64,000 bases of DNA from an uncultured Thermoplasmata archaeon (GTDB taxonomy: Archaea; Thermoplasmatota; Thermoplasmata; Lutacidiplasmatales; UBA184), in NCBI GenBank assembly GCA_963730815.1, contig CAVSTD010000003.1:37570-101569 (forward strand). The letters run 5' to 3'. How positions within the stretch are numbered: position 1 is the stretch's first letter; every line of letters starts with the position of its first letter. Below the pieces are notes generated by a model. It was not told the DNA's origin. It made no database searches and worked only from the letters and a program-made list of their open reading frames with translations. Both the position numbers and the translations under genes were made by a program. Below are positions 10,123-18,160 of this stretch, piece after piece.

Positions 10123-11994
10123 GTGGTCGACCCCATCCAGCTCACGAGCGACATCGTGAACGACACCGTCTCCCTGGCCCTTCCCGGCCTCCTCTGGGCC
10201 GTGCTGTTCCTGGTCGCCTGGGAACACGCGCCGTTCGCCGAGAGCATCGGGTTCGGCCGCCGGGCGTTTTGGTTGCTGCTGCCGGGCGCCCTCCTCGCGT
10301 CGTTCGCGCTCCTGCCGATCGCGCCCGTCTCCACGGATTGGGTGGCGGTGAGCTTCGCCGGAGCCGTTTTCCCGCTCCTCGTCGGGCTGCTTGCCTTCGG
10401 CCGGGCCGCCCCACCTCGTTCCCGATCCCTGTCCCGTTACCTACTCCTGCTCGCCATCGAAGGAGGCGTGCTCTTTCTCCTGGTCCTTTCGGGGACGGCC
10501 GGCTTCTCGCACTCCTTCGCGCAGGCGTTCGGCACCACGAATTACGTCGGGAACGAGCTCGCGGTGATGGTGGTCGCGACGGCCTACTGCGCGGTGGTGG
10601 GTGGGGTCGCTCTCGTCTCCCGGGACCTCCTTTTCCGGAAGGTAGCTTTCCTCGTTGCGCTCACCTCAGGGGTACTCGTGGGAACGTTCATTGCGTCGAG
10701 CGCGATCCCTGGAGTGGGGATCGCCGAATCGTTCCCCTTCTACCTCGTTCCCCCCGTGATGGCCGGTTTGATCGCCGTCCTTCTGGCCGGCCGGGTCTTC
10801 CCGAACGAGGAGGGTTATGCCATCCCCACGGCGTTCTTGGCCAGCACCTTCGGGGTACTCCTCGGGGCCGACCTCCTTCGTCAACCTCCGCTGTATGGGT
10901 CCGGCCCGTTGGGGTTGTACACGATCGGGGGCGCCGGGGTGCTCGACCTCGTCTACCTTTCGGGACTGCTCGCCTTCGCCGCGGCGTACGCGGGCCACCG
11001 CCTCACCAGTGGAGGGATGCAAGCGGTGGGTCCGGCTTCCCCCGATCGGACCCTCTCGCCGATGACCCGCCTGTTGCGCGCGTTCCGCTCCGGGTTGGAC
11101 GGACGACTCTCCGACTCCCTCAACGAATCTTCGGCAGCGAGCCACGCGGCCACGGAACAGACTCGACAGCTGTTGGGGTTGGCCCCCTCCGCCGATGGCC
11201 GCTCCTGGCAGGACCTACCCGTGCCGGGCTGGATCGTCTCCGACCAGGCCAATCTCGATGCGGCCGCTCGGGCGGGCACGGGGGACGGGCGCGAGGGGTT
11301 CCGGGCCTGGTTGACCGCCCGCTGGCTCGTCCTGATCGCCCGGGACCTCGGCGTTCGTCGATTCGCCTCCATCGGCGCCCGGGCCGCGGCGTTCGCCGTC
11401 GATCTCGCGCTCGTGACCGCACCGGCGGTGGCGCTCTGGGCGGCGTTGCTCCTGACGATGTCCGGCGGACTCTCGGACGCGCTGTCGAACCTGGCGTTCA
11501 ACGCTGCTATCTTCGGATACATCGCCTGGGCGTTCCTCTACTTCGTCCTGGCCGAGACGTTCGAAGGAACGACCGTCGGGAAGCGTCTCTTCGGACTCGA
11601 AGTTCGGGAGCGGGCGCTCGCTGCCCCGAGCGGGCTCTCGGCTCTGGTTCGCAACTCCACCGTCGTGCCCCTCCTTTCGGTCGTGGGCATCGGGATCGCC
11701 ATCGCCCTCGCCTTCGGACTCAAGAGCGGGGCCTCGGGTACGCTGACACTCCTCGGTGTCGCATTGCCGGCCGGGCTGCTTGCCTTGGTCGGAGTCCTCT
11801 CGTTCGTTCTCGGCGGAGTGGCCCTGCTGGGCGTCGGGGCAATCGCGCTCATCGCCGCGACGTCCGAACGGCAACGGCTCGGAGACCTCTGGGCCGGTAC
11901 GTGGGTGGTCCGACGCGAGCCGTCGGCCGCTACGGGTGGGGCGCCGCCGGCGGTGGCGTCCCCGCCGCCCCCGGAACCGGGCCGGTCCGGTTGA
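10123..11994 (+). CDS. Multi-pass membrane protein, DUF1614-like domain fused to C-terminal RDD domain
   Basis: LLGADLL...IGGAGVLDLVYLSGLL (DUF1614-like); RAAAFAVD, GTTVGKRLFGLEV, RQRLGDLWAGTWVVR (RDD). Confidence 0.7.
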   Translation: MVDPIQLTSDIVNDTVSLALPGLLWAVLFLVAWEHAPFAESIGFGRRAFWLLLPGALLASFALLPIAPVSTDWVAVSFAGAVFPLLVGLLAFGRAAPPRSRSLSRYLLLLAIEGGVLFLLVLSGTAGFSHSFAQAFGTTNYVGNELAVMVVATAYCAVVGGVALVSRDLLFRKVAFLVALTSGVLVGTFIASSAIPGVGIAESFPFYLVPPVMAGLIAVLLAGRVFPNEEGYAIPTAFLASTFGVLLGADLLRQPPLYGSGPLGLYTIGGAGVLDLVYLSGLLAFAAAYAGHRLTSGGMQAVGPASPDRTLSPMTRLLRAFRSGLDGRLSDSLNESSAASHAATEQTRQLLGLAPSADGRSWQDLPVPGWIVSDQANLDAAARAGTGDGREGFRAWLTARWLVLIARDLGVRRFASIGARAAAFAVDLALVTAPAVALWAALLLTMSGGLSDALSNLAFNAAIFGYIAWAFLYFVLAETFEGTTVGKRLFGLEVRERALAAPSGLSALVRNSTVVPLLSVVGIGIAIALAFGLKSGASGTLTLLGVALPAGLLALVGVLSFVLGGVALLGVGAIALIAATSERQRLGDLWAGTWVVRREPSAATGGAPPAVASPPPPEPGRSG

Positions 11995-12271
11995 GTGGGA
12001 TCGCGATCGCCGAAACGTTGGCCTCGCGTCCCTCCCGGTTCACGAGCCGCTCGGTGTCGATCGAGATCGGGCCAATGTTCACCTCGCCCTGCAGGAAGCG
12101 GTGGCGGACCACTTCGACCACGTCCACGGCTTTGCCGATCGCATTCCCTCGAGCCTTGACGACGACCGGTCCGGCGCCCGAATTGAGCTGGCTCACGACC
12201 TGGAAGACATAGGTCATCGTGGGCTTTTGGCCGATGAACACGGTCGCGCCGGTCGGTCCGCGCTCAGTCAT
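11930..12271 (-). CDS. albA: DNA/RNA-binding protein Alba
   Basis: VFIGQKPTMTYV, VVVKARGNAIGKAVDVVE, NVSAIAI. Confidence 0.93.
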   Translation of the reverse strand: MTERGPTGATVFIGQKPTMTYVFQVVSQLNSGAGPVVVKARGNAIGKAVDVVEVVRHRFLQGEVNIGPISIDTERLVNREGREANVSAIAIPLNRTGPVPGAAGTPPPAAPHP

Positions 12272-12351
12272 GGAAAGGCCGGCACCCCGTCCTCGTACAA
12301 GGCCTTTTTCGACCTGGGCCCGGTCCGAGTACCCGGCGCCGGTTCCGTTCG

Positions 12352-12362
12352 TAAAGGTTAAT
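12352..12362 (+). promoter_or_regulatory. Probable BRE/TATA promoter of tRNA-Leu
   Basis: TAAAGGTTAAT AT-rich motif 30-40 bp upstream of the tRNA in a GC-rich background. Confidence 0.5.
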
Positions 12363-12392
12363 GCGGAAACCGAGTAGGCGCGGAAGACCCGT

Positions 12393-12477
12393 GCAGGGGT
12401 GGCCCAGCTTGGTCAAAGGCGCTAGGTTGAGGTCCTAGTCTCGTAGGAGTCCGTGAGTTCAAATCTCACCCCCTGCA
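12393..12477 (+). tRNA. tRNA-Leu (GAG)
   Basis: Acceptor stem GCAGGGG/CCCCTGC, anticodon arm CTAGG-TTGAGGT-CCTAG, long variable arm, T-arm GTGAG-TTCAAAT-CTCAC, discriminator A. Confidence 0.97.
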
Positions 12478-12633
12478 CCTTTCCTCTCGTTCGTTCCGAA
12501 TTGTCGAGCTCCTCTGTCATTCAAGCGTTCGGAATGGGGTGGTTTTCCAAAGCGAGGATTACCCCGGACGGGTGTCGTGCCATCGCGGACCTGTTAAGGC
12601 CAGAGACCGACATCCCGTCCGCCAGGGCTGTCG

Positions 12634-13419
12634 ATGCCGTTCATCACTCGTGAAGGGGTCAAGATCCACTACGAGGTGGAGGGAGAGGGACCGCCTCTTC
12701 TTCTCCATCCTGGCGGTGCCGGCGACCTCGAGTCGTGGCGGCTGGCGGGTTACGCCGATGCCCTCAGGTCCGAACATCGATTGATCCTCATTGATCACCG
12801 AGGACATGGGAAGAGCGACAAGCCGGATAGTCCAACGGCCCATCGAATCGAGGAGTACCGCGATGACGTGCGTGCGGTCCTCGATGCGTTGGGATGTCCG
12901 CGCACGATCTTCGTCGGATTCTCCGACGGTTCGAAGGTCGGGGCTACGCTCGCCGAGAGTGATCCCGGTCGCGTGTTCGCGCTAGTCGACATCGACGGAC
13001 TCGAGCCTCGGGACCTGACCGACCCAAAAAGCCGGGATCGCCAGCAACGGTCCGAACTCGCCCAGTTCATACGACAACGCGGGTGGGCAAAGGCCGCCCA
13101 TGAATGGGCGAAAGATGAAGGCTACCGCGGGCCCGAATCGGTTGTCGAGAACATGGCGGCCACCGACCCCGAAATGTTTGCATTGGAACTCGAACAATGG
13201 AGGCAGTGGGACGGGCCGGCCAGCGTCCTACGTCGTCTGCGGGTCCCGGTTCTCTTGCTCCAAGCCGAACGTAACTATTCCGAAGAGGAACGTGAGGCGA
13301 TGACGCAAATGAATCCCCGATCAAGATCTCGATTGCTCCCCGGGGTCGGCCACCTAGGTGCCTTCGCCAGCGTCGACCGGGTTATTCCTTCCCTGCGGGA
13401 GTTCCTCTCGACCTTGTAG
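12634..13419 (+). CDS. Alpha/beta-fold hydrolase
   Basis: IHYEVEGEGPPLLLHPG, IDHRGHGKSD, nucleophile elbow GFSDG, C-terminal GVGH. Confidence 0.9.
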   Translation: MPFITREGVKIHYEVEGEGPPLLLHPGGAGDLESWRLAGYADALRSEHRLILIDHRGHGKSDKPDSPTAHRIEEYRDDVRAVLDALGCPRTIFVGFSDGSKVGATLAESDPGRVFALVDIDGLEPRDLTDPKSRDRQQRSELAQFIRQRGWAKAAHEWAKDEGYRGPESVVENMAATDPEMFALELEQWRQWDGPASVLRRLRVPVLLLQAERNYSEEEREAMTQMNPRSRSRLLPGVGHLGAFASVDRVIPSLREFLSTL

Positions 13420-13535
13420 CTCCCGACTCGAGATTCTCGTGCCGGACTACGAGATCCTGAAGCTGCACGCGGTTCGGAACGTCCGGAAGGCGCGGAGAGT
13501 GTAGGTTCGGTTCCTCCGCCGGACCGCTCACCCTA

Positions 13536-13638
13536 GTCTAACAGCGGGGTTGTGTAAGGGGCGGATATCTTGTCGAGGACAGGTCGGTTTCTTGCGGTAC
13601 GATGAATTGAACCAAAGGGGGATTCACACCCCCTGCAC
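13536..13638 (+). repeat. Module-end repeat R1 (att-like)
   Basis: About 80% identical to 15189-15290 by manual alignment; ends in CACCCCCTGCAC, identical to 12467-12478. Confidence 0.9.
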
Positions 13639-13700
13639 TTCACCTATCGTCCCAAATGACTTCCGACCCCCCGCGGATTGACGTCTTTGAGAAGGGTGCT

Positions 13701-14915
13701 TTAGGGAAACGGAAACGCCGTCGGCTCCCAACGAGCCGCGAGCAACAAGCTTCCGGCTGTTGAGTGGGTGACCGGCGCTATCGACGTCGTGGGAGCGTTC
13801 ACCAGGGCGACTTCGACGAGCGCACCGGTCCCGTCCTCACCGATGTAGAGGTTCCCCGTGAGGGGGTTGATCGCAATGACACCTGGCAGCGTGCCATTTC
13901 CGAGGAAAATGGATCCCACCACTTGGTTCGTGGATGCATTGATGATCGAGATGTTTCCCGACGCCGCGCACGAAACATACAGGAGCTGCGACGTCGGATT
14001 GTAAGCGTACGCGTCCGGCCAGGTGCCGAGCGTGAGACTCGCGACGATCTGGTCGGTCGCCGGGTTGAGGACCACGGCCTGATTCCCAGGACCCATCCAG
14101 AGCCACCCGCCGAGCATCACATAGACATAACCGTTCAACGGGTCGAAGAATGTGGACGTGGGTCCTTCACTCCCCGGCATCAAAACGCTGTCGAACGGAG
14201 TACCGTTGAGTTCCCCGATCTCCGAGACCGCGTTGTCGCCGCGAGCGGGGAAGTAGATGACGTGGGTGCTCTCGTTGATCGCATACCCGTTCCCGCCGCC
14301 CGGATTCTCGTCGATCGGCAGGACTCGGGTCAAGTTGTAGGTGATCGGGTTGATCTACAAGATGGAATCCGGAGGGTTGTTGGCGAGGACGAGCAATTGA
14401 CCGGTGGAAGGGTCGAGCTGCTCGCCCACCATGTATCCGTACGGACTGTAGTCCCGCGTGGTCTGAATCGTGTTGGTGGTCGTGTTGATCACCGTGAGAT
14501 TGCTCGCATAGTCGTTCGAGACGAACAGGAGGTGATGGGAGGGGTCGAGTACCAATCCTCGTGCGTCGGATCCCGTGCGGATGACCTGGGTTACTTGGAA
14601 CGGACTGGGATTCACGATGGAGACCGTTTGGGAGAACTCCGAGGCTACGTACAGCACCGCGCTTTGGGGGTCGTAAATCACATACTGAGGCCAGAACCCG
14701 ACGGGAACACTGCTCACATTGATCTGGGCGATGGTCGCAACGACCGCATAATGCGCGCTGCCTCCCGCCTTACCGTTGCCACCCGGGGTCGGGGTTACCT
14801 CCTTCCCGTTGCTGCCAGGGCTCGGAGCGCCGACGACATAGAGAAACGTGCCCAGCACGGCGACGACCACCACGGCCACGACCAGCGCTTGCCGCAAGGA
14901 CGGCGACAACGACAT
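13701..14915 (-). pseudogene. Membrane-anchored YncE/YVTN-type beta-propeller protein with one in-frame TAG
   Basis: N-terminal TM helix; repeats YDPQSAVLYVASEFSQTVSIVN and YNPTSQLLYVSCAASGNISIIN; ORFs 14355-15053 and 13701-14333 share a frame and are separated only by TAG at 14355-14357. Confidence 0.75.
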
Positions 14916-15188
14916 CTGCCGCGGGCCCCTTTCCACGCCGCCCGCGACGGGGTACTCCTCCGGCAGTACATGGGGTTTGTCGCTTTGCCTCGTCTTGGGA
15001 AAGTGTCGTTCCGGGCGCCGGTGCGGGAGCGTCTTGGGCCCGGTGCGCAACATGGATTTTCGCTGACAGGGGTCTTCGATTCGGCCGCCACAACTCCGTC
15101 GAATTCGGGTCCACGCGCTAGATCGATCCGGGCGACGAAAGGGGCACCCTGGGTAAGTCGCCCTCCGTTCCCCGGGTGGCCCACCCGT

Positions 15189-15297
15189 GTCTAACGGCGG
15201 GGTTGCGCACGGGGTGGATATCCCATCCGGACGGGTCGGTTTCCTGCAATACGATGAACTGAACCCACGGAGGGTTCACACCCCCCGGACCTTTCCT
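15189..15297 (+). repeat. Module-end repeat R2 (att-like)
   Basis: Aligns to R1; its end CACCCCCCGGACCTTTCCT matches tRNA end plus flank CACCCCCTGCACCTTTCCT (12467-12485) at 17/19. Confidence 0.9.
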
Positions 15298-15391
15298 TTT
15301 CTCTCTACACTCCCGATGAGCGGGCTCGTTCCTGACTGTTGCCGAACTGCTCTATCGATTCTGCCTTCGGCAAGGATGCGGGCAGTACTCA

Positions 15392-16237
15392 CTACCCCTC
15401 GGTGTACGCGATCCAAAGGGGCGTAAGAAGTTGAAGAACACACTGAGATGTATTGTCGTTGTAGAAGACGAAAGTGTAGGTTCCCGGACCGACTAGTAGA
15501 AGGGGGTTTGAGGAGAGAAAGGGCCCTCCTATGCCCCCGCTGGCCTCTATGAACCACGAGAGAACGGTCCAGTTGAACGCCGATTGATTGGCCTGAAAGG
15601 ATGCCCATTGGGAAGGGTCCATGAAGCCTGCGGAGAAACCAGTGTTGACTTTGCCATCTGAATAGAACGCGATTCGGCCGGCGTTAGGTGGAATCGAGAC
15701 GGACCAACTCAGGTAGTGCATTGGGCCGATGACTTGGGTTCCGGCCGATTGGAGCAGAATCGTGGTCCGATCAAACAGCAACTCAACCGGTTGGGTGATG
15801 GTTACTTTGGTGATGTTGGCTGGCCAACTACCGGTCGTGAAGATAAGGTCATACGAGCCCGGAAAAAGCGTCGTATTGTATGATCCATTCAATGAGTCGC
15901 AAGTTTGCACCGGGCAAGTGTAAGTCGACCCTGCGGGGATTACGGCCGTATCCGTCAGCTGGGTAGCGTTCCACGCTCCTAGGAATGTGATCGACTCGTT
16001 GATACAGAAAGGGAAGGCAGCTTCAGCATGTCCGGTTGCATTCGGCGAGACTGTGAAATTGATCCCTTTTGACAAGAGAGTTACTGCCTTGGAGGTATTG
16101 GGGGTGGAGGCGCACTTAGCGGACGGAGGGATCGGGGAGGGGAAGGCTTGAAGGGTGATGACTGAGACCAGAATCAAGGTCGTGGCGGCTGCAACCGTCC
16201 CCGCCACTTTCAGGCTCTTCGGAGACGGGCCTCCCAT
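15392..16237 (-). CDS. Hypothetical exported/surface protein
   Basis: N-terminal hydrophobic anchor, Ser/Thr/Asn-rich with many N-x-S/T sequons, two beta-sandwich-like halves (PGSYDLIF, PGTYTFVF); AT-richer codons. Confidence 0.75.
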   Translation of the reverse strand: MGGPSPKSLKVAGTVAAATTLILVSVITLQAFPSPIPPSAKCASTPNTSKAVTLLSKGINFTVSPNATGHAEAAFPFCINESITFLGAWNATQLTDTAVIPAGSTYTCPVQTCDSLNGSYNTTLFPGSYDLIFTTGSWPANITKVTITQPVELLFDRTTILLQSAGTQVIGPMHYLSWSVSIPPNAGRIAFYSDGKVNTGFSAGFMDPSQWASFQANQSAFNWTVLSWFIEASGGIGGPFLSSNPLLLVGPGTYTFVFYNDNTSQCVLQLLTPLWIAYTEG

Positions 16238-16480
16238 ATCTGACCCGAACTAGTCGGTTTCGACTTATCTGCTTGAGGGGGAGTTGCCCCCACGTGCGAA
16301 TGCTCGCACCTTCGTGAAGCGCCTGAAGAATTGCTTGGTCCGATACCGTGCGATTGGTGCATGGCTCAACAGACGTCCGGATCGCGTCCGAGTTCTCTCC
16401 TCGAGTCAGCTAGTCTTCGATCCTGACCCCTGCCAGCTTGGAGTGCTTTCCGGTTTGGGAGTGGTGAGAACCCGACCGGG

Positions 16481-16519
16481 CGATGAACCAAACGAATCAG
16501 CGATTCGCACCCGCCGCAT
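16481..16519 (+). repeat. Degenerate module-end repeat R3
   Basis: CGATGAACCAAACGAATCAGCGATTCGCACCCGCCGCAT aligns without gaps to 13600-13638 at 27/39. Confidence 0.55.
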
Positions 16520-16619
16520 CGTTCTTCCCGCGCCGCGGGCAAGATAGCGGAGACCTCTCGCCGCTGCCTCCGCAGCAACTCGCGTTTTAAGACCCTGCGA
16601 ACCTGTGTCTCCGAGTCGG

Positions 16620-17609
16620 ATGGCCGAAGTAGGCGTGGTCTGCCCCAAGTGCGGGGCGACGGTCCCCCCGGAGGCACTCGTGTGCCCGGAGTGTCACACC
16701 TTTCTCGATGAGCCGGCGCCCGCCGAGCCCGTGACCCCCGTTGCCATGCCGGAGTCCCGCCCGCCGCGCGCCCCTCCGGCGGCGAGACCTGCACGGACCT
16801 CGAGCCCGGATGCCCAGAACCCTTTTGCCGCCGAGCTCGCCCGCCGTCTCGCCCGCCTCAACCAATGGGCGGACGGGGTCCAACCCCTCGGAGCTCAGCT
16901 GCCGAGGCTGCCCGCGTGGGCCGAGGAGTCCGCACGCACCGCGAGCAATCCCGAACCCTGGGCCGAGGCCGTCCGGGGGGTGGAGCGACTCGCCCAGAAA
17001 CGGGTGGTGGCCGCGTTCGAGGAGTGGGAAAAGCGGACGAAATCTCGCCTCAGTCGTCTCGAGGCTTATTCGGTCGACAGCCGCCTGGAGCGGGACCAGA
17101 TCGAGGACGCGCTCCACTCGGCCCGCACCGGCGACGTCGCCCAGGCGCTTTCTTCCTACCAACAAGTCGAACGAGTCGTTGCGCTCAAGGAACGTCACCT
17201 CGACCAGGCTCGGGAGGAGCTCGAGCGGGTGATCGCCCTCCTGCACGACATGGACGCGCTCGGGATCGAGCCGCCGCAGGATTCGACCGAGGTCGCGGAC
17301 GACCTTGAGAGCGAACTGCGCGCGGGCAAGCTCGCCGCGTTGAAGCAACAGACCCGGGCGATCCGGCTCCAGGCGGTCACGCGCCTGAAGGCGGGTTTGC
17401 CTCAGTACATCTCCGAGTATGGCGATTACCTGCTAGGCGAACGGGCCCACGGGATCGCGACCGAACTCGAGGCAATCGAGCTCGCGCGCGGAGCCCGGGA
17501 ATTCTTCCGGGGGAAACCGGAAGACGGGGTGCGGCGTCTTCGAGCACTCCAGCAACGCCATGGGCTGCCGCCGAACCGACCGGCGCACGCCGCTCCTCGA
17601 GCCCGTTGA
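16620..17609 (+). CDS. Zn-ribbon + coiled-coil hypothetical protein
   Basis: CPKCG...CPECH N-terminus, Pro-rich linker, long helical region. Confidence 0.75.
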   Translation: MAEVGVVCPKCGATVPPEALVCPECHTFLDEPAPAEPVTPVAMPESRPPRAPPAARPARTSSPDAQNPFAAELARRLARLNQWADGVQPLGAQLPRLPAWAEESARTASNPEPWAEAVRGVERLAQKRVVAAFEEWEKRTKSRLSRLEAYSVDSRLERDQIEDALHSARTGDVAQALSSYQQVERVVALKERHLDQAREELERVIALLHDMDALGIEPPQDSTEVADDLESELRAGKLAALKQQTRAIRLQAVTRLKAGLPQYISEYGDYLLGERAHGIATELEAIELARGAREFFRGKPEDGVRRLRALQQRHGLPPNRPAHAAPRAR

Positions 17610-17626
17610 ACGTAACGTCGCGTTCG

Positions 17627-18160
17627 CTAGAGCACTCGCTCGAACAGGGTGACGTCCTCGCCCCACTCGTGCTTGTGGAGCACGCCGGCCTGGGCGAACC
17701 CGAGATGCTGGAAGAGAGCCGTGGCCGGTGCGAAGCGGCTGAGGGAATCGATCCAGATGGCGGTCGCGTTCGATTTCTTGGCCCACTCGACCGCCGCCGC
17801 GACGAGCGATGTGGCCACACCCTGGCGTCGGGTCTCCGGGTCGACCGCGAGGTCCATCATGCGGACGCTGGCGTGCCGGATCTCGCAACCGATGATGCCC
17901 ACGAGTCGTCCGTCCTTGCGGGCCGCAAAGTAGGTGACGCCTTCCATCCAGCTCGTGAACTCGAGCGCGGTGGGTTGCCACGTCTTGACGAAGTCGGCCG
18001 GAACCCCCGGAGGGGCGGGCTCCCAGACCCGTCGGTAGAGGGCGCAGATCGCGGGGACGTCCTGGTGCGTGATCCGTTCGACCAGCACCGCGCCGGGCGT
18101 TTTCTCGGTCGGGGTTCCCGAGCGCTCGCCTCCCCGGACCGGTACCTGCTCTGATGCCAC
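17627..18160 (-). CDS. GNAT-family N-acetyltransferase
   Basis: LAVDPETRRQGVATSL motif A; ALFQHLGF. Confidence 0.85.
   Translation of the reverse strand: MASEQVPVRGGERSGTPTEKTPGAVLVERITHQDVPAICALYRRVWEPAPPGVPADFVKTWQPTALEFTSWMEGVTYFAARKDGRLVGIIGCEIRHASVRMMDLAVDPETRRQGVATSLVAAAVEWAKKSNATAIWIDSLSRFAPATALFQHLGFAQAGVLHKHEWGEDVTLFERVL

What the first reader, a model, noticed from the sequence alone, without database searches (positions are those of the whole stretch)
12467..16519. tRNA-Leu-anchored array of single-gene cassettes, each closed by a conserved att-like end (integron-like system with no local integrase)
Seen: three consecutive modules follow tRNA-Leu (12479-13638, 13639-15290, 15291-16519; about 1.16, 1.65 and 1.23 kb). 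Each carries exactly one unrelated accessory gene (hydrolase on +, beta-propeller on -, surface protein on -), and each ends in a related non-coding repeat that finishes with a copy of the tRNA 3' end. R1 and R2 are about 80% identical over ~103 bp, and only the last 12-19 bp derive from the tRNA locus. There is no integrase, transposase or replication gene. Established: tyrosine integrases target tRNA 3' ends and duplicate them as attR, and integrons stack single-gene cassettes. Inference: small circular cassettes with a shared attP arm are inserted serially at the tRNA by a recombinase acting in trans, giving a tRNA-based gene-capture array that I do not recognise as described.
Basis: partly seen in the sequence, partly recalled or inferred. 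Interest (0 to 1): 0.88.

Follow-up and report, generated by a model that had tools for sequence, protein, structure and literature searches.

The report
tRNA-anchored array of integrase-less gene cassettes
Next to a leucine tRNA gene of an uncultured soil archaeon lie three small one-gene inserts, each ending in a copy of the tRNA's tail, and relatives show that such inserts come, go and move between species without carrying their own insertion enzyme.

Summary
tRNA-Leu(GAG) (12393-12479) is followed by three modules of 1.16, 1.65 and 1.23 kb. Each ends in a related non-coding arm plus a copy of the tRNA 3' end. R1 and R2 are 80% alike over about 108 nt; R3 is degenerate.

The site is a true insertion point. 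It is empty in 9 of 19 measurable relatives, including the closest one, and holds 1.8-11.2 kb of unrelated accessory genes in the other 10. No recombinase gene was found in any island examined.

Module 1 behaves as a unit. It is 99.5% identical between two species whose flanks are 77-82% identical, and the similarity stops at the tRNA and at the core.

The same hydrolase cargo with a related arm sits in a tRNA-Thr(TGT) array in another species. In this genome, Lys, Thr, Arg and a second Leu tRNA gene also carry such small arrays: 11 same-strand downstream 3'-end copies against 0, 0 and 1 in three control placements.

It is not an integron. The arm has no attC-like fold, the genes are not co-oriented, and no integrase is adjacent.

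Best reading: serial site-specific insertion of integrase-less cassettes by a recombinase encoded elsewhere. That recombinase was not identified and circular forms were not tested. I rate it a new variant of tRNA-anchored tandem islands.

The parts
12393..12479 (+). tRNA-Leu(GAG) gene. Its last 12 nt before the final C (12467-12478, CACCCCCTGCAC) are the sequence repeated at the module ends, so this is the attL-side core.
   Evidence: ARAGORN; Rfam RF00005, 50.8 bits; repeat family D1.
12480..12537 (+). Left arm (P') of module 1. About 68 nt after the tRNA are shared with G003, G123, G157, G008 and G163, although the cargo that follows differs. This stretch is absent from the empty site of G121:C48.
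   Evidence: Island all-against-all BLAST; junction sequences.
12538..13480 (+). Cargo of module 1: an alpha/beta hydrolase gene (CDS 12634-13419) with its own flanks. It is 92% identical to G003, whereas the flanks are 76-84.5% identical. It is 78-79% identical to copies at other, mutually non-syntenic loci in G122, G008 and G168.
   Evidence: Pfam.
13481..13641 (+). R1: right arm (P) of module 1 plus core. It contains the dispersed arm element (motif at 13536-13561), the box GAATTGAACC, a small hairpin GGGGG-ATTCACA-CCCCC, and the core at 13623-13638. Homology between G000 and G003 stops at 13641.
13639..15171 (-). Module 2 left end and cargo: a YncE-like beta-propeller gene (13701-15053) with a nonsense TAG at 14355-14357. 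Homologues at 74-82% identity lie at non-syntenic loci in G007, G105 and G072.
15172..15290 (+). R2: right arm of module 2 plus a degenerate core (15276-15290, TCACACCCCCCGGAC). The arm-element motif is at 15189-15214.
15291..16477 (-). Module 3 left end and cargo: a 281-aa gene (15392-16237) with no Pfam family. It has an N-terminal hydrophobic anchor and many N-glycosylation-type sequons.
   Evidence: There is no DNA match in 150 genus genomes apart from one 142-nt stretch at 69%.
16478..16519 (+). R3: degenerate arm end plus core-like sequence (16505-16519). It sits in the same position as the terminal junction of G123.
16569..17609 (+). Conserved right flank: promoter-like TTTTAAG region and zinc-ribbon protein gene. 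In distant relatives this gene follows the tRNA almost directly.

Best explanation
The stretch is a genomic islet built at the 3' end of tRNA-Leu(GAG) by repeated site-specific recombination of the tyrosine-integrase type.

Each of the three modules is a small cassette without an integrase. It consists of a left arm, one accessory gene and a right arm. The right arm ends in a 12-17 nt sequence shared with the tRNA 3' end, so each internal boundary reads right arm - core - left arm of the next module, which is an attP-like junction.

New cassettes enter next to the tRNA or at an existing junction and push older ones outward. The recombinase is encoded elsewhere in the cell or on a helper element. 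The cassettes belong to a genus-wide pool that also occupies other tRNA genes. Older cassettes decay: module 2 has a nonsense codon, and R2 and R3 are degenerate.

Shown here:
- the anatomy of the array;
- the empty site in relatives;
- variable content among relatives;
- absence of recombinase genes in all islands examined;
- transfer of module 1 as a unit between species;
- the same cargo and arm type at a second tRNA.

Inferred:
- site-specific recombination as the mechanism;
- a circular intermediate;
- action of the recombinase in trans.
For: 1. **Same-strand 3'-end copies.** Direct copies of the tRNA 3' end lie downstream at 1160, 1652 and 1229 nt spacing, with related arms.

2. **Empty sites.** The closest relative (G121:C48, about 88% identity) has tRNA, 155 bp, then the downstream gene. 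Eight more distant relatives are also near-empty. Ten loci hold 1.8-11.2 kb.

3. **Breakpoints at the core.**
   - G000 and G003 share the tRNA, module 1 and R up to window 13641, then differ completely.
   - G123 has the tRNA, module 1, R and about 45 bp before the downstream gene. It lacks the 636 bp that G003 and G157 carry there.

4. **Transfer of module 1 as a unit.**
   - G123 and G003 are 77% (upstream) and 82% (downstream) identical in the flanks.
   - Module 1 has 5 mismatches in 965 nt (99.5%). Mismatches are dense up to 7 nt before the tRNA, and similarity is lost right after the core.
   - G000 against G003: cargo 92%, flanks 76-84.5%.

5. **Same ends, different cargo.** G157 has the same 68-nt left end and the same right arm as module 1, but 10.6 kb of other genes between them.

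6. **No recombinase in the islands.**
   - None of 23 PF00589 places in G157, G008, G168, G163 and G126 lies in an island.
   - 0 of 40 island ORFs scanned hit an integrase, transposase or replication family.

7. **Generality.**
   - A related arm followed by a copy of the local tRNA end closes 2.2-3.5 kb modules at a tRNA(CAT) gene in G141 and G005 and at tRNA-Leu(CAA) in G141.
   - The hydrolase cargo with a related arm lies in a three-junction tRNA-Thr(TGT) array in G122.
   - In G000, 11 downstream same-strand copies of tRNA 3' ends were found against 0, 0 and 1 in three control placements, over 31 tRNAs. The junction arms of the Thr(GGT) array are 84% alike over 128 nt.

8. **Read data.** These are contigs only. 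One run holds a contig matching G000 up to 13650 and then continues differently. Another continues at 13638 as G003 does.
Against: - **No recombinase could be tied to the arrays.** The Int327-type tyrosine recombinase family is common but patchy (110 of 150 genomes). It lies in non-syntenic places and is not listed for G121, G004 or G135. No arm element lies next to a PF00589 hit in the loci examined.
- **No circular form or excision junction was seen.** Only contigs could be laid, and the single read-laying run is used.
- **The near-perfect G003/G123 tract ends about 25 nt before the core.** There are 4 mismatches in the last ~20 nt of the arm. This fits a crossover inside the arm (homologous recombination or gene conversion between arms) better than a simple attP x attB event.
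- **The hydrolase cargo sits at two tRNAs with different cores.** One site-specific enzyme with one core does not explain that.
- **Many occupied islands show no core copy.** Of 15 occupied relatives' islands scanned (10 measurable, 4 cut by a contig or fetch end, and G141:C63), 9 show none; one of the 9, the G123 contig, ends before R. These are G008, G168, G063, G121:C10, G141, G126, G167, G173 and G123:C26.
- **About half of the arm-motif copies are far from a tRNA.** 10 of 22 have no tRNA within 5 kb.
- **Assembly caveat.** All genomes are metagenome bins, so misassembly at repeats is possible.
Confidence: 0.55

Rival explanations
1. Eroded relics. Three larger integrase-bearing elements (plasmids or viruses) integrated one after another at tRNA-Leu(GAG). 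Each later lost its integrase and backbone by deletion. What remains is immobile, and differences among relatives come from deletion and ordinary recombination.
For: - Tandem integration at one site and loss of the integrase after integration are described for archaea (passages of PMC8371274; PMC6563490).
- Partial tRNAs and degenerate remnants fill Prochlorococcus islands (passages of bioRxiv 10.1101/2020.12.28.424599).
- Decay is visible here: a nonsense codon in module 2 and degenerate R2 and R3.
- 9 of 15 occupied relatives' islands scanned have no recognisable core.
Against: - No integrase fragment was found by six-frame search in any island.
- Modules keep both arms with one gene between them.
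- Module sizes of 0.7-3 kb recur at many tRNAs.
- Module 1 is 99.5% identical, with the same two ends, in two species that are 77-82% identical in their flanks. That would require identical deletions twice, or transfer of the already reduced unit.
Confidence: 0.22
2. Cassette exchange by homologous recombination. The cores were made long ago by integrases. Today the conserved tRNA gene on one side and the shared arm element on the other serve as portable homology, so that incoming DNA from relatives replaces or adds modules without any dedicated recombinase.
For: - The tRNA is 100% identical among relatives.
- The arms are 80-96% alike over 100-160 nt.
- The G003/G123 identity tract ends inside the arm, about 25 nt before the core.
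- The arm element is dispersed and lies beside the same hydrolase at two different tRNAs and at non-tRNA loci.
- Islands around Int327 genes are mosaics of 0.4-1.1 kb pieces that are scattered in G000.
- This reading explains why no integrase is found.
Against: - It does not explain how each module gets its own copy of the local tRNA end, at several different tRNAs.
- It does not explain the strict same-strand, downstream placement: 11 against 0, 0 and 1.
- It does not explain the break at the core between G000 and G003, where nothing downstream is shared until 16575.
Confidence: 0.18
3. Assembly artefact or local duplication. On this view the repeats come from misjoined contigs of co-occurring strains, or from tandem duplication of the tRNA flank.
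For: - All genomes are metagenome bins.
- Several related populations co-occur in the same runs. In run X7, depth on module 1 is about 30 against 2-5 on modules 2 and 3.
Against: - Contigs of another run span the R1/module 2 boundary (13211-14117, 2 differences) and the R2/module 3 boundary (15238-16187, 0 differences) (records 12 and 15).
- The cargo genes are unrelated to one another.
- The same architecture recurs in independent assemblies of other species.
Confidence: 0.05

Closest known systems
Tandem accretion at a tRNA or other att site with integrase-less cis-mobilizable elements (CIMEs) beside ICEs/IMEs in Streptococcus. The definition is recalled; of the papers listed I saw only the listing and abstract starts.
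   Same: - Elements are bounded by att repeats and carry no recombination genes.
- They sit in tandem at one site.
- They are thought to move when a related integrase is supplied.
   Different: - No cognate integrase-bearing element sharing the arm was found in the genomes searched.
- The modules here are single genes of 0.7-3 kb.
- The host is an archaeon.
- Several tRNA genes are used, with a related arm family.
Prochlorococcus tRNA-anchored genomic islands and tycheposons (bioRxiv 10.1101/2020.12.28.424599; passages read, supplements not seen).
   Same: - Islands lie next to tRNA genes.
- Partial tRNA copies separate neighbouring elements.
- Newcomers push older elements into the island.
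- Remnants and cargo genes lie outside functional elements.
   Different: - Tycheposons are defined by their own tyrosine or large serine recombinase and often by replication genes. None is present here.
- The units here are mostly one gene, and they share a conserved non-coding arm element.
Integrons (features recalled, not taken from a call).
   Same: - Stacks of single-gene cassettes at one anchor.
- Each cassette is closed by a recombination site.
- The cassettes carry no recombinase of their own.
   Different: - No adjacent intI.
- No attC-like folded hairpin.
- The genes lie on both strands and have their own upstream regions.
- The anchor is a tRNA 3' end.
Archaeal integrated elements at tRNA genes (SSV-type and pNOB8-type integrases, with 'gene capture' after integrase loss). 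Passages of PMC8371274 were read; PMC7253208 was seen only in the listing.
   Same: - The tRNA 3' end is the target.
- Direct repeats of the tRNA end flank the inserted DNA.
- Tandem integration and loss of the integrase are both known.
   Different: - No split int(N)/int(C) fragments: PF16795 gave no hit and PF00589 gave none at the locus.
- The arm is non-coding, with stops and 1-nt indels between R1 and R2.
- The units are far smaller than the smallest element quoted there, 2.6 kb with an integrase.

Membership tests
Integron | An IntI-type tyrosine recombinase gene adjacent to the array, with attI and a common promoter | tested here: not met
   There is no PF00589 match in window 12480-16575 or its flanks. 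The four genomic hits are on contigs C8, C4 and C9.
Integron | attC sites: imperfect palindromes that fold as single strands | tested here: not met
   DNA folds of R1 and R2 on both strands give z-scores of 0.64, -0.04, 1.14 and 0.22. RNAalifold on 23 arm copies gives no consensus structure. A local hairpin is present in only about 10 of the 23 copies.
Integron | Cassette genes co-oriented and read from one promoter | tested here: not met
   The hydrolase is on the + strand; the propeller and the 281-aa gene are on the - strand.
Site-specific integrative element at a tRNA 3' end (tyrosine-integrase type) | Same-strand direct repeat of the tRNA 3' end at the far boundary of the inserted DNA | tested here: met
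   (11 downstream same-strand copies against 0, 0 and 1 in the control placements).
Site-specific integrative element at a tRNA 3' end (tyrosine-integrase type) | An unoccupied site in relatives | tested here: met
   The site is empty in G121:C48 (155 bp) and in 8 further loci, out of 19 measurable.
Site-specific integrative element at a tRNA 3' end (tyrosine-integrase type) | The element encodes its own integrase | tested here: not met
CIME-like (cis-mobilizable, integrase-less) element | Flanked by att sites and lacking recombination and transfer genes | tested here: met
   together with the island scans cited above.
CIME-like (cis-mobilizable, integrase-less) element | A related integrase-bearing element with the same att arm that can mobilise it | tested here: inconclusive
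   Not found in G000 or in the five relatives searched for PF00589. The arm-motif scan of viral contigs gave 0 hits. The bins are 53-100% complete, and plasmids may be unbinned.
Tycheposon | Hallmark tyrosine or large serine recombinase, with or without a replication module, inside the element | tested here: not met
   The same scans as above. The only serine recombinase of G000 is at C3:11337-11765, outside the array.
Casposon | Cas1 casposase, terminal inverted repeats and a target-site duplication | tested here: not met
   There is no Cas1 (PF01867) in G000. Only weak end-proximal inverted repeats were seen: 18 nt at 78% in module 1 and 13 nt at 85% in module 3.

The most novel reading that the evidence does not exclude
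This soil Thermoplasmata genus runs a gene-cassette system anchored on several tRNA genes. Small circular one-gene cassettes carry a shared ~100-160 nt arm and a short core matched to a tRNA 3' end. A chromosomal or helper-borne recombinase acting in trans inserts, excises and reshuffles them among the Leu, Thr, Lys, Arg and CAT-anticodon tRNA sites and between species. In function this would be an archaeal counterpart of integrons, built on attP/tRNA chemistry instead of attC hairpins.
Probability: 0.3. Interest if true: 0.85.

Novelty: new variant of a known kind. Interest (0 to 1): 0.66.

Why it matters
How archaea without plasmids, conjugation genes or obvious proviruses gain and swap accessory genes is poorly understood.

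Here a whole genus of uncultured soil archaea appears to keep its flexible genes in short stacks beside tRNA genes. These genes include hydrolases, beta-propellers, cyclase-TPR proteins, methyltransferases and surface proteins. At least one single-gene unit has moved between species with exact ends and no recombinase of its own.

If a trans-acting enzyme is found, three things follow:
- a compact new site-specific recombination system with programmable tRNA-end targets;
- a direct handle on pangenome turnover in soil archaea;
- a natural parallel to integrons and to the tRNA islands of marine cyanobacteria.

If instead the units are relics shuffled by homologous recombination, the locus still shows how tRNA genes and a dispersed arm repeat act as portable homology.

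Tried and rejected
**Structured RNA or attC-like site**
- Rfam (E up to 1) found only the tRNA in 11500-18000, apart from one chance-level snoRNA hit.
- An Rfam gathering scan of 14 arm-bearing loci found only tRNAs and one RNase P gene.
- Folds are not better than shuffles.
- RNAalifold on 4 copies gave -24 kcal/mol with little covariation. On 23 copies it gave no structure.

**Coding arm (a split SSV-type integrase).** The arm has stops in all + frames. One minus-strand frame is open for 34 codons, but R1 and R2 differ by a 1-nt indel while DNA similarity continues beyond it (my reading). PF16795 gave no hit.

**Casposon.** There is no Cas1 and no convincing terminal inverted repeats.

**Link to the Int327 recombinase family**
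- Seven loci around Int327 genes were fetched. Only the gene itself is shared, at about 72% identity.
- No arm element lies beside any of them, except ~10 kb away in G170.
- No tRNA 3'-end repeats were found at the G170 tRNA(CAT) or the G007 tRNA-Cys sites.
- I do not claim this enzyme acts on the array.

**Searches elsewhere**
- The arm-motif scan of viral contigs gave 0 hits.
- The junction pattern in metagenome contigs gave only 3 loci.

**Read data**
- Only Logan contigs were available.
- Parts without cover in runs X8 and X10 prove nothing.
- The joint 12477->17157 in X7 (one contig, 'between: not known') probably comes from a relative.
- No circle junction could be sought.

**Other**
- The Atlas search for the module 3 protein returned unnamed clusters only.
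- Supplements of the tycheposon preprint, which hold its tandem examples, could not be seen.

**Unpublished genomes.** G159, G019 and G160 were flagged as unpublished. They enter only the tallies. No specific claim rests on them.

**ORF selection.** Island ORFs were picked greedily: the longest ORFs of 90 aa or more, excluding overlaps. 30 of the 48 ORFs listed, plus 10 of G157, were scanned. Small genes could have been missed.

Full report
**What is there**

ARAGORN and Rfam place tRNA-Leu(GAG) at 12393-12479 on the + strand. The tRNA 3' end recurs three times downstream on the same strand, at 13624-13650, 15276-15302 and 16505-16531. Identity to the tRNA copy over 27 nt is 81, 78 and 70%.

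Upstream of the first two copies lies a shared non-coding arm. R1 and R2 are 80% alike over 69 nt and 78% over 51 nt, or 79.6% over 108 nt. In the 1.88-Mb genome this arm matches only itself and R2 (E 2.3e-20).

R3 shares only the last ~45 nt: CGATGAA..AAC..GATTCGCACCCGCCGCA. It lies where the terminal junction of relative G123 lies, 70-95 nt before the TTTTAAG box of the downstream zinc-ribbon gene.

The three modules carry:
- an alpha/beta hydrolase on the + strand;
- a YncE-like beta-propeller on the - strand, with one nonsense TAG where three homologues have Ser;
- a 281-aa protein on the - strand with no family, a hydrophobic N-terminus and many N-x-S/T sites.

No recombinase family matches inside the array.

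**The site in relatives**

The organism belongs to a large genus of soil 'Thermoplasmata archaeon' bins (record titles). The upstream gene plus tRNA is found in 147 of 150 genus genomes. I fetched 23 loci from 22 genomes. In 19 of them the distance from the tRNA to the downstream gene can be measured.

- Nine loci are near-empty. They include the closest relative, G121:C48 (about 88% identity, 155 bp). In distant relatives the zinc-ribbon gene starts within about 20-130 nt of the tRNA.
- Ten loci hold 1.8-11.2 kb.
- The islands carry unrelated accessory genes: P-type ATPase, PPK2, pilin, SnoaL, cyclase-AAA-TPR, POR subunits, a pyruvate-kinase-like gene, Kelch and NHL propellers, methyltransferase, glyoxalase, regulators and a PKD protein.
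- 0 of 40 scanned ORFs hit an integrase, transposase or replication family.
- None of 23 PF00589 places in five of these genomes lies in an island.

The exact core TTCACACCCCCTGCA occurs six times in 150 genomes, always at this locus: in G000, G003, G123, G157, G004 and G135. One-mismatch hits elsewhere are no more frequent than hits to the reversed control pattern, which gave 9.

**Evidence that modules are units**

G000 and G003 share the tRNA, module 1 and R up to window 13641. After that they share nothing until 16575.

G123 has tRNA, module 1, R, about 45 bp, then the downstream gene. G003 and G157 have an extra 636 bp there.

G157 is 95% identical to G003 in both flanks. It has the same 68-nt left end and the same right arm, but 10.6 kb of other genes in place of the hydrolase.

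The most telling comparison is G123 against G003:
- The upstream flank is 77% identical and the downstream flank 82%.
- Module 1 differs at 5 of 965 positions.
- Mismatches are dense up to 7 nt before the tRNA, nearly absent through the module and most of the arm, and similarity ends right after the core.

G000 against G003 shows the same pattern more weakly: cargo 92%, flanks 76-84.5%.

So a 1.16-kb, one-gene, recombinase-free unit has moved between species into the same site.

**The phenomenon is wider than this tRNA**

The hydrolase cargo (window 12538-13480) has 78-79% identical copies in G122, G008 and G168, at mutually non-syntenic places. G008 and G168 share only a 1148-nt unit, at 90.7%.

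In G122 the hydrolase copy lies in the first module of an array at tRNA-Thr(TGT), which has three downstream copies of that tRNA's end. There it is followed by a related arm that ends in the Thr core. The propeller cargo is likewise found at non-syntenic places in three genomes.

The 5' ~100 nt of the arm is a dispersed element with the motif [GT]TCTAACGAGGGGGTTGTGTAAGGGG. It gave 22 hits in 15 of 150 genomes, against 0 for the reversed control. By my count:
- 11 of the 22 lie in an island directly downstream of a tRNA gene. Seven of these are the same Leu(GAG) locus in related genomes, so they are not independent.
- One lies 7 kb from a tRNA.
- 10 have no tRNA within 5 kb.

In G141 and G005 the element closes 2.2-2.4 kb modules at an intron-bearing tRNA(CAT) gene. 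In G141 it also closes a 3.5-kb module at tRNA-Leu(CAA). Each time it ends in a copy of the local tRNA end. The cargo is of the same kinds and includes no integrase.

In G000 itself, a scan of 31 tRNA genes for copies of the last 16 nt (up to 2 mismatches, within 15 kb) gave:
- 11 downstream on the same strand;
- 0 upstream on the same strand;
- 0 downstream on the opposite strand;
- 1 upstream on the opposite strand.

The arrays found in G000 are Lys(CTT) with three copies, Thr(GGT) with three, and Leu(CAG) and Arg(CCT) with one each. The Thr junctions share arms at 84% over 128 nt. Their cargo is cyclase-TPR, methyltransferase, GrpB, an AbiEi-like regulator, a deaminase and a surface protein.

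**What the arm is not**

- It is not an attC-like hairpin or a known RNA.
- It does not look like a fragment of a split integrase gene. The evidence is my reading (stops in the + frames, a 1-nt indel between R1 and R2) plus (no PF16795 hit).
- Its end holds a short inverted repeat (TGAACC..GG(A)TTCA) that overlaps the T-loop-like part of the core. I read this as a possible core-type binding site. That is an inference.

**Mechanism**

Four observations together fit serial site-specific recombination of the tyrosine-integrase type at the tRNA 3' end, with internal boundaries that are attP-like junctions:
- the same-strand, downstream-only copies of tRNA ends;
- the empty sites in relatives;
- breaks at the core;
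- unit-level transfer of module 1.

Because no island holds a recombinase, the enzyme must act in trans or be gone.

G000 has four tyrosine-recombinase hits:
- a XerA-like gene;
- a 404-aa gene (the 408-aa open frame at C8:12519);
- a 314-aa 'Int327' gene;
- a fragment at a contig end.

It also has one small serine recombinase. The Int327 family is in 110 of 150 genomes. It is patchy, non-syntenic and often at contig ends. I could not link it to the arrays.

Points against the simple model are reported in full:
- The near-perfect G003/G123 tract ends about 25 nt before the core.
- One cargo sits at two tRNAs with different cores.
- 9 of 15 occupied relatives' islands scanned have no core.
- Nearly half of the arm copies are away from tRNAs.

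These points fit a share of homologous exchange between arms, which I keep as a rival, and decay, which is visible in module 2 and in R2 and R3.

**Read data**

Seven runs hold 72% or more of the sampled words. Three of them may be the source sample. Only contigs could be laid.
- Contigs of X6 span the R1/module 2 and R2/module 3 boundaries.
- One X6 contig leaves at 13638 into the G003-type continuation.
- One X10 contig matches G000 up to 13650 and then differs.
- In X7 a 94% variant of module 1 is several-fold deeper than modules 2 and 3.

This agrees with module-level differences among co-occurring populations, but it shows no circles.

**Comparison with the known**

Tandem integration at one site and integrase loss are known in archaea (passages of PMC8371274 and PMC6563490). 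tRNA-anchored islands with partial tRNA copies and remnants are described for Prochlorococcus tycheposons (passages of the preprint). Integrase-less CIMEs in tandem with ICEs are known in streptococci (recalled; only a listing seen).

None of the passages I read describes arrays of single-gene, recombinase-free cassettes with a shared arm family spread over several tRNA genes of an archaeal genus. I cannot exclude a description in papers outside the library or in supplements, which were closed.

**Verdict**

The integron likeness does not hold.
- The recombinase and the circular form remain to be shown.
- I rate it a new variant of a known kind, with interest 0.66.

Noticed in passing
window 13536-13561 and 15189-15214; also G000:C6:2818-2934 and C11:157019-157088; loci L049-L061: A genus-specific dispersed element of about 100 nt carries the motif [GT]TCTAACGAGGGGGTTGTGTAAGGGG. 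It gave 22 hits in 15 of 150 genomes and none for the reversed control. It often lies just downstream of unrelated genes (TetR, ICMT methyltransferase, hydrolase). It has no Rfam match and no alignment-wide fold, but a local hairpin CGAGGGG..CCCTCG with some compensatory changes occurs in about 10 of 23 copies.
   Followed up: partly
G000 contigs: C8:23546-29648 (tRNA-Lys CTT), C8:119516-123170 (tRNA-Thr GGT), C3:232495-234739 (tRNA-Leu CAG), C8:543679-545835 (tRNA-Arg CCT): Four further tRNA genes of the same genome carry 1-3 small modules (0.7-3.1 kb). Each module is bounded by same-strand copies of the tRNA 3' end and none contains an integrase. The cargo includes two cyclase-TPR genes, a methyltransferase, GrpB and an AbiEi-like regulator.
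   Followed up: partly
G000 tRNA-Lys and tRNA-Leu(CAG) arrays; L030 (G135); L050 (G141); L019 (G008): Adenylate/guanylate-cyclase-plus-TPR genes of about 640-670 aa (1090 aa with an AAA domain in G008) recur as cargo of tRNA-side modules at four different tRNA genes in four genomes.
   Followed up: no
window 14355-14357: The beta-propeller gene of module 2 has an in-frame TAG at a position where three homologues have a conserved Ser. It is a recent nonsense mutation or a sequencing error. Nothing suggests that the codon is recoded.
   Followed up: yes
L021 (G121:C48) 1277-2724: The closest relative has an empty site downstream of the tRNA. It also has about 1.45 kb of extra DNA between the upstream gene and the tRNA that the window lacks.
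   Followed up: no
L073, L074, L076 (around Int327-type integrase genes in G003, G157, G149): The neighbourhoods of these integrase genes are mosaics of 0.4-1.1 kb pieces whose G000 counterparts are scattered over contigs C1, C2, C3, C6, C7, C8 and C11. This suggests that single-gene-sized shuffling is common in this genus.
   Followed up: no
L019, L022, L023, L025, L026, L027, L031, L079: A 2.1-kb segment with a pyruvate-kinase-barrel-like gene sits directly before the downstream gene in seven genomes and one metagenome contig. Variable DNA lies between it and the tRNA. In L079 it follows an arm-plus-core junction.
   Followed up: partly
G000:C3:11337-11765 (outside the window, about 26 kb to its left): This is the only serine recombinase (resolvase type) of the genome. 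It lies about 4 kb downstream of tRNA-Arg(CCG), whose 3' end has a 2-mismatch copy 14.4 kb downstream. It may mark a larger integrated element.
   Followed up: no
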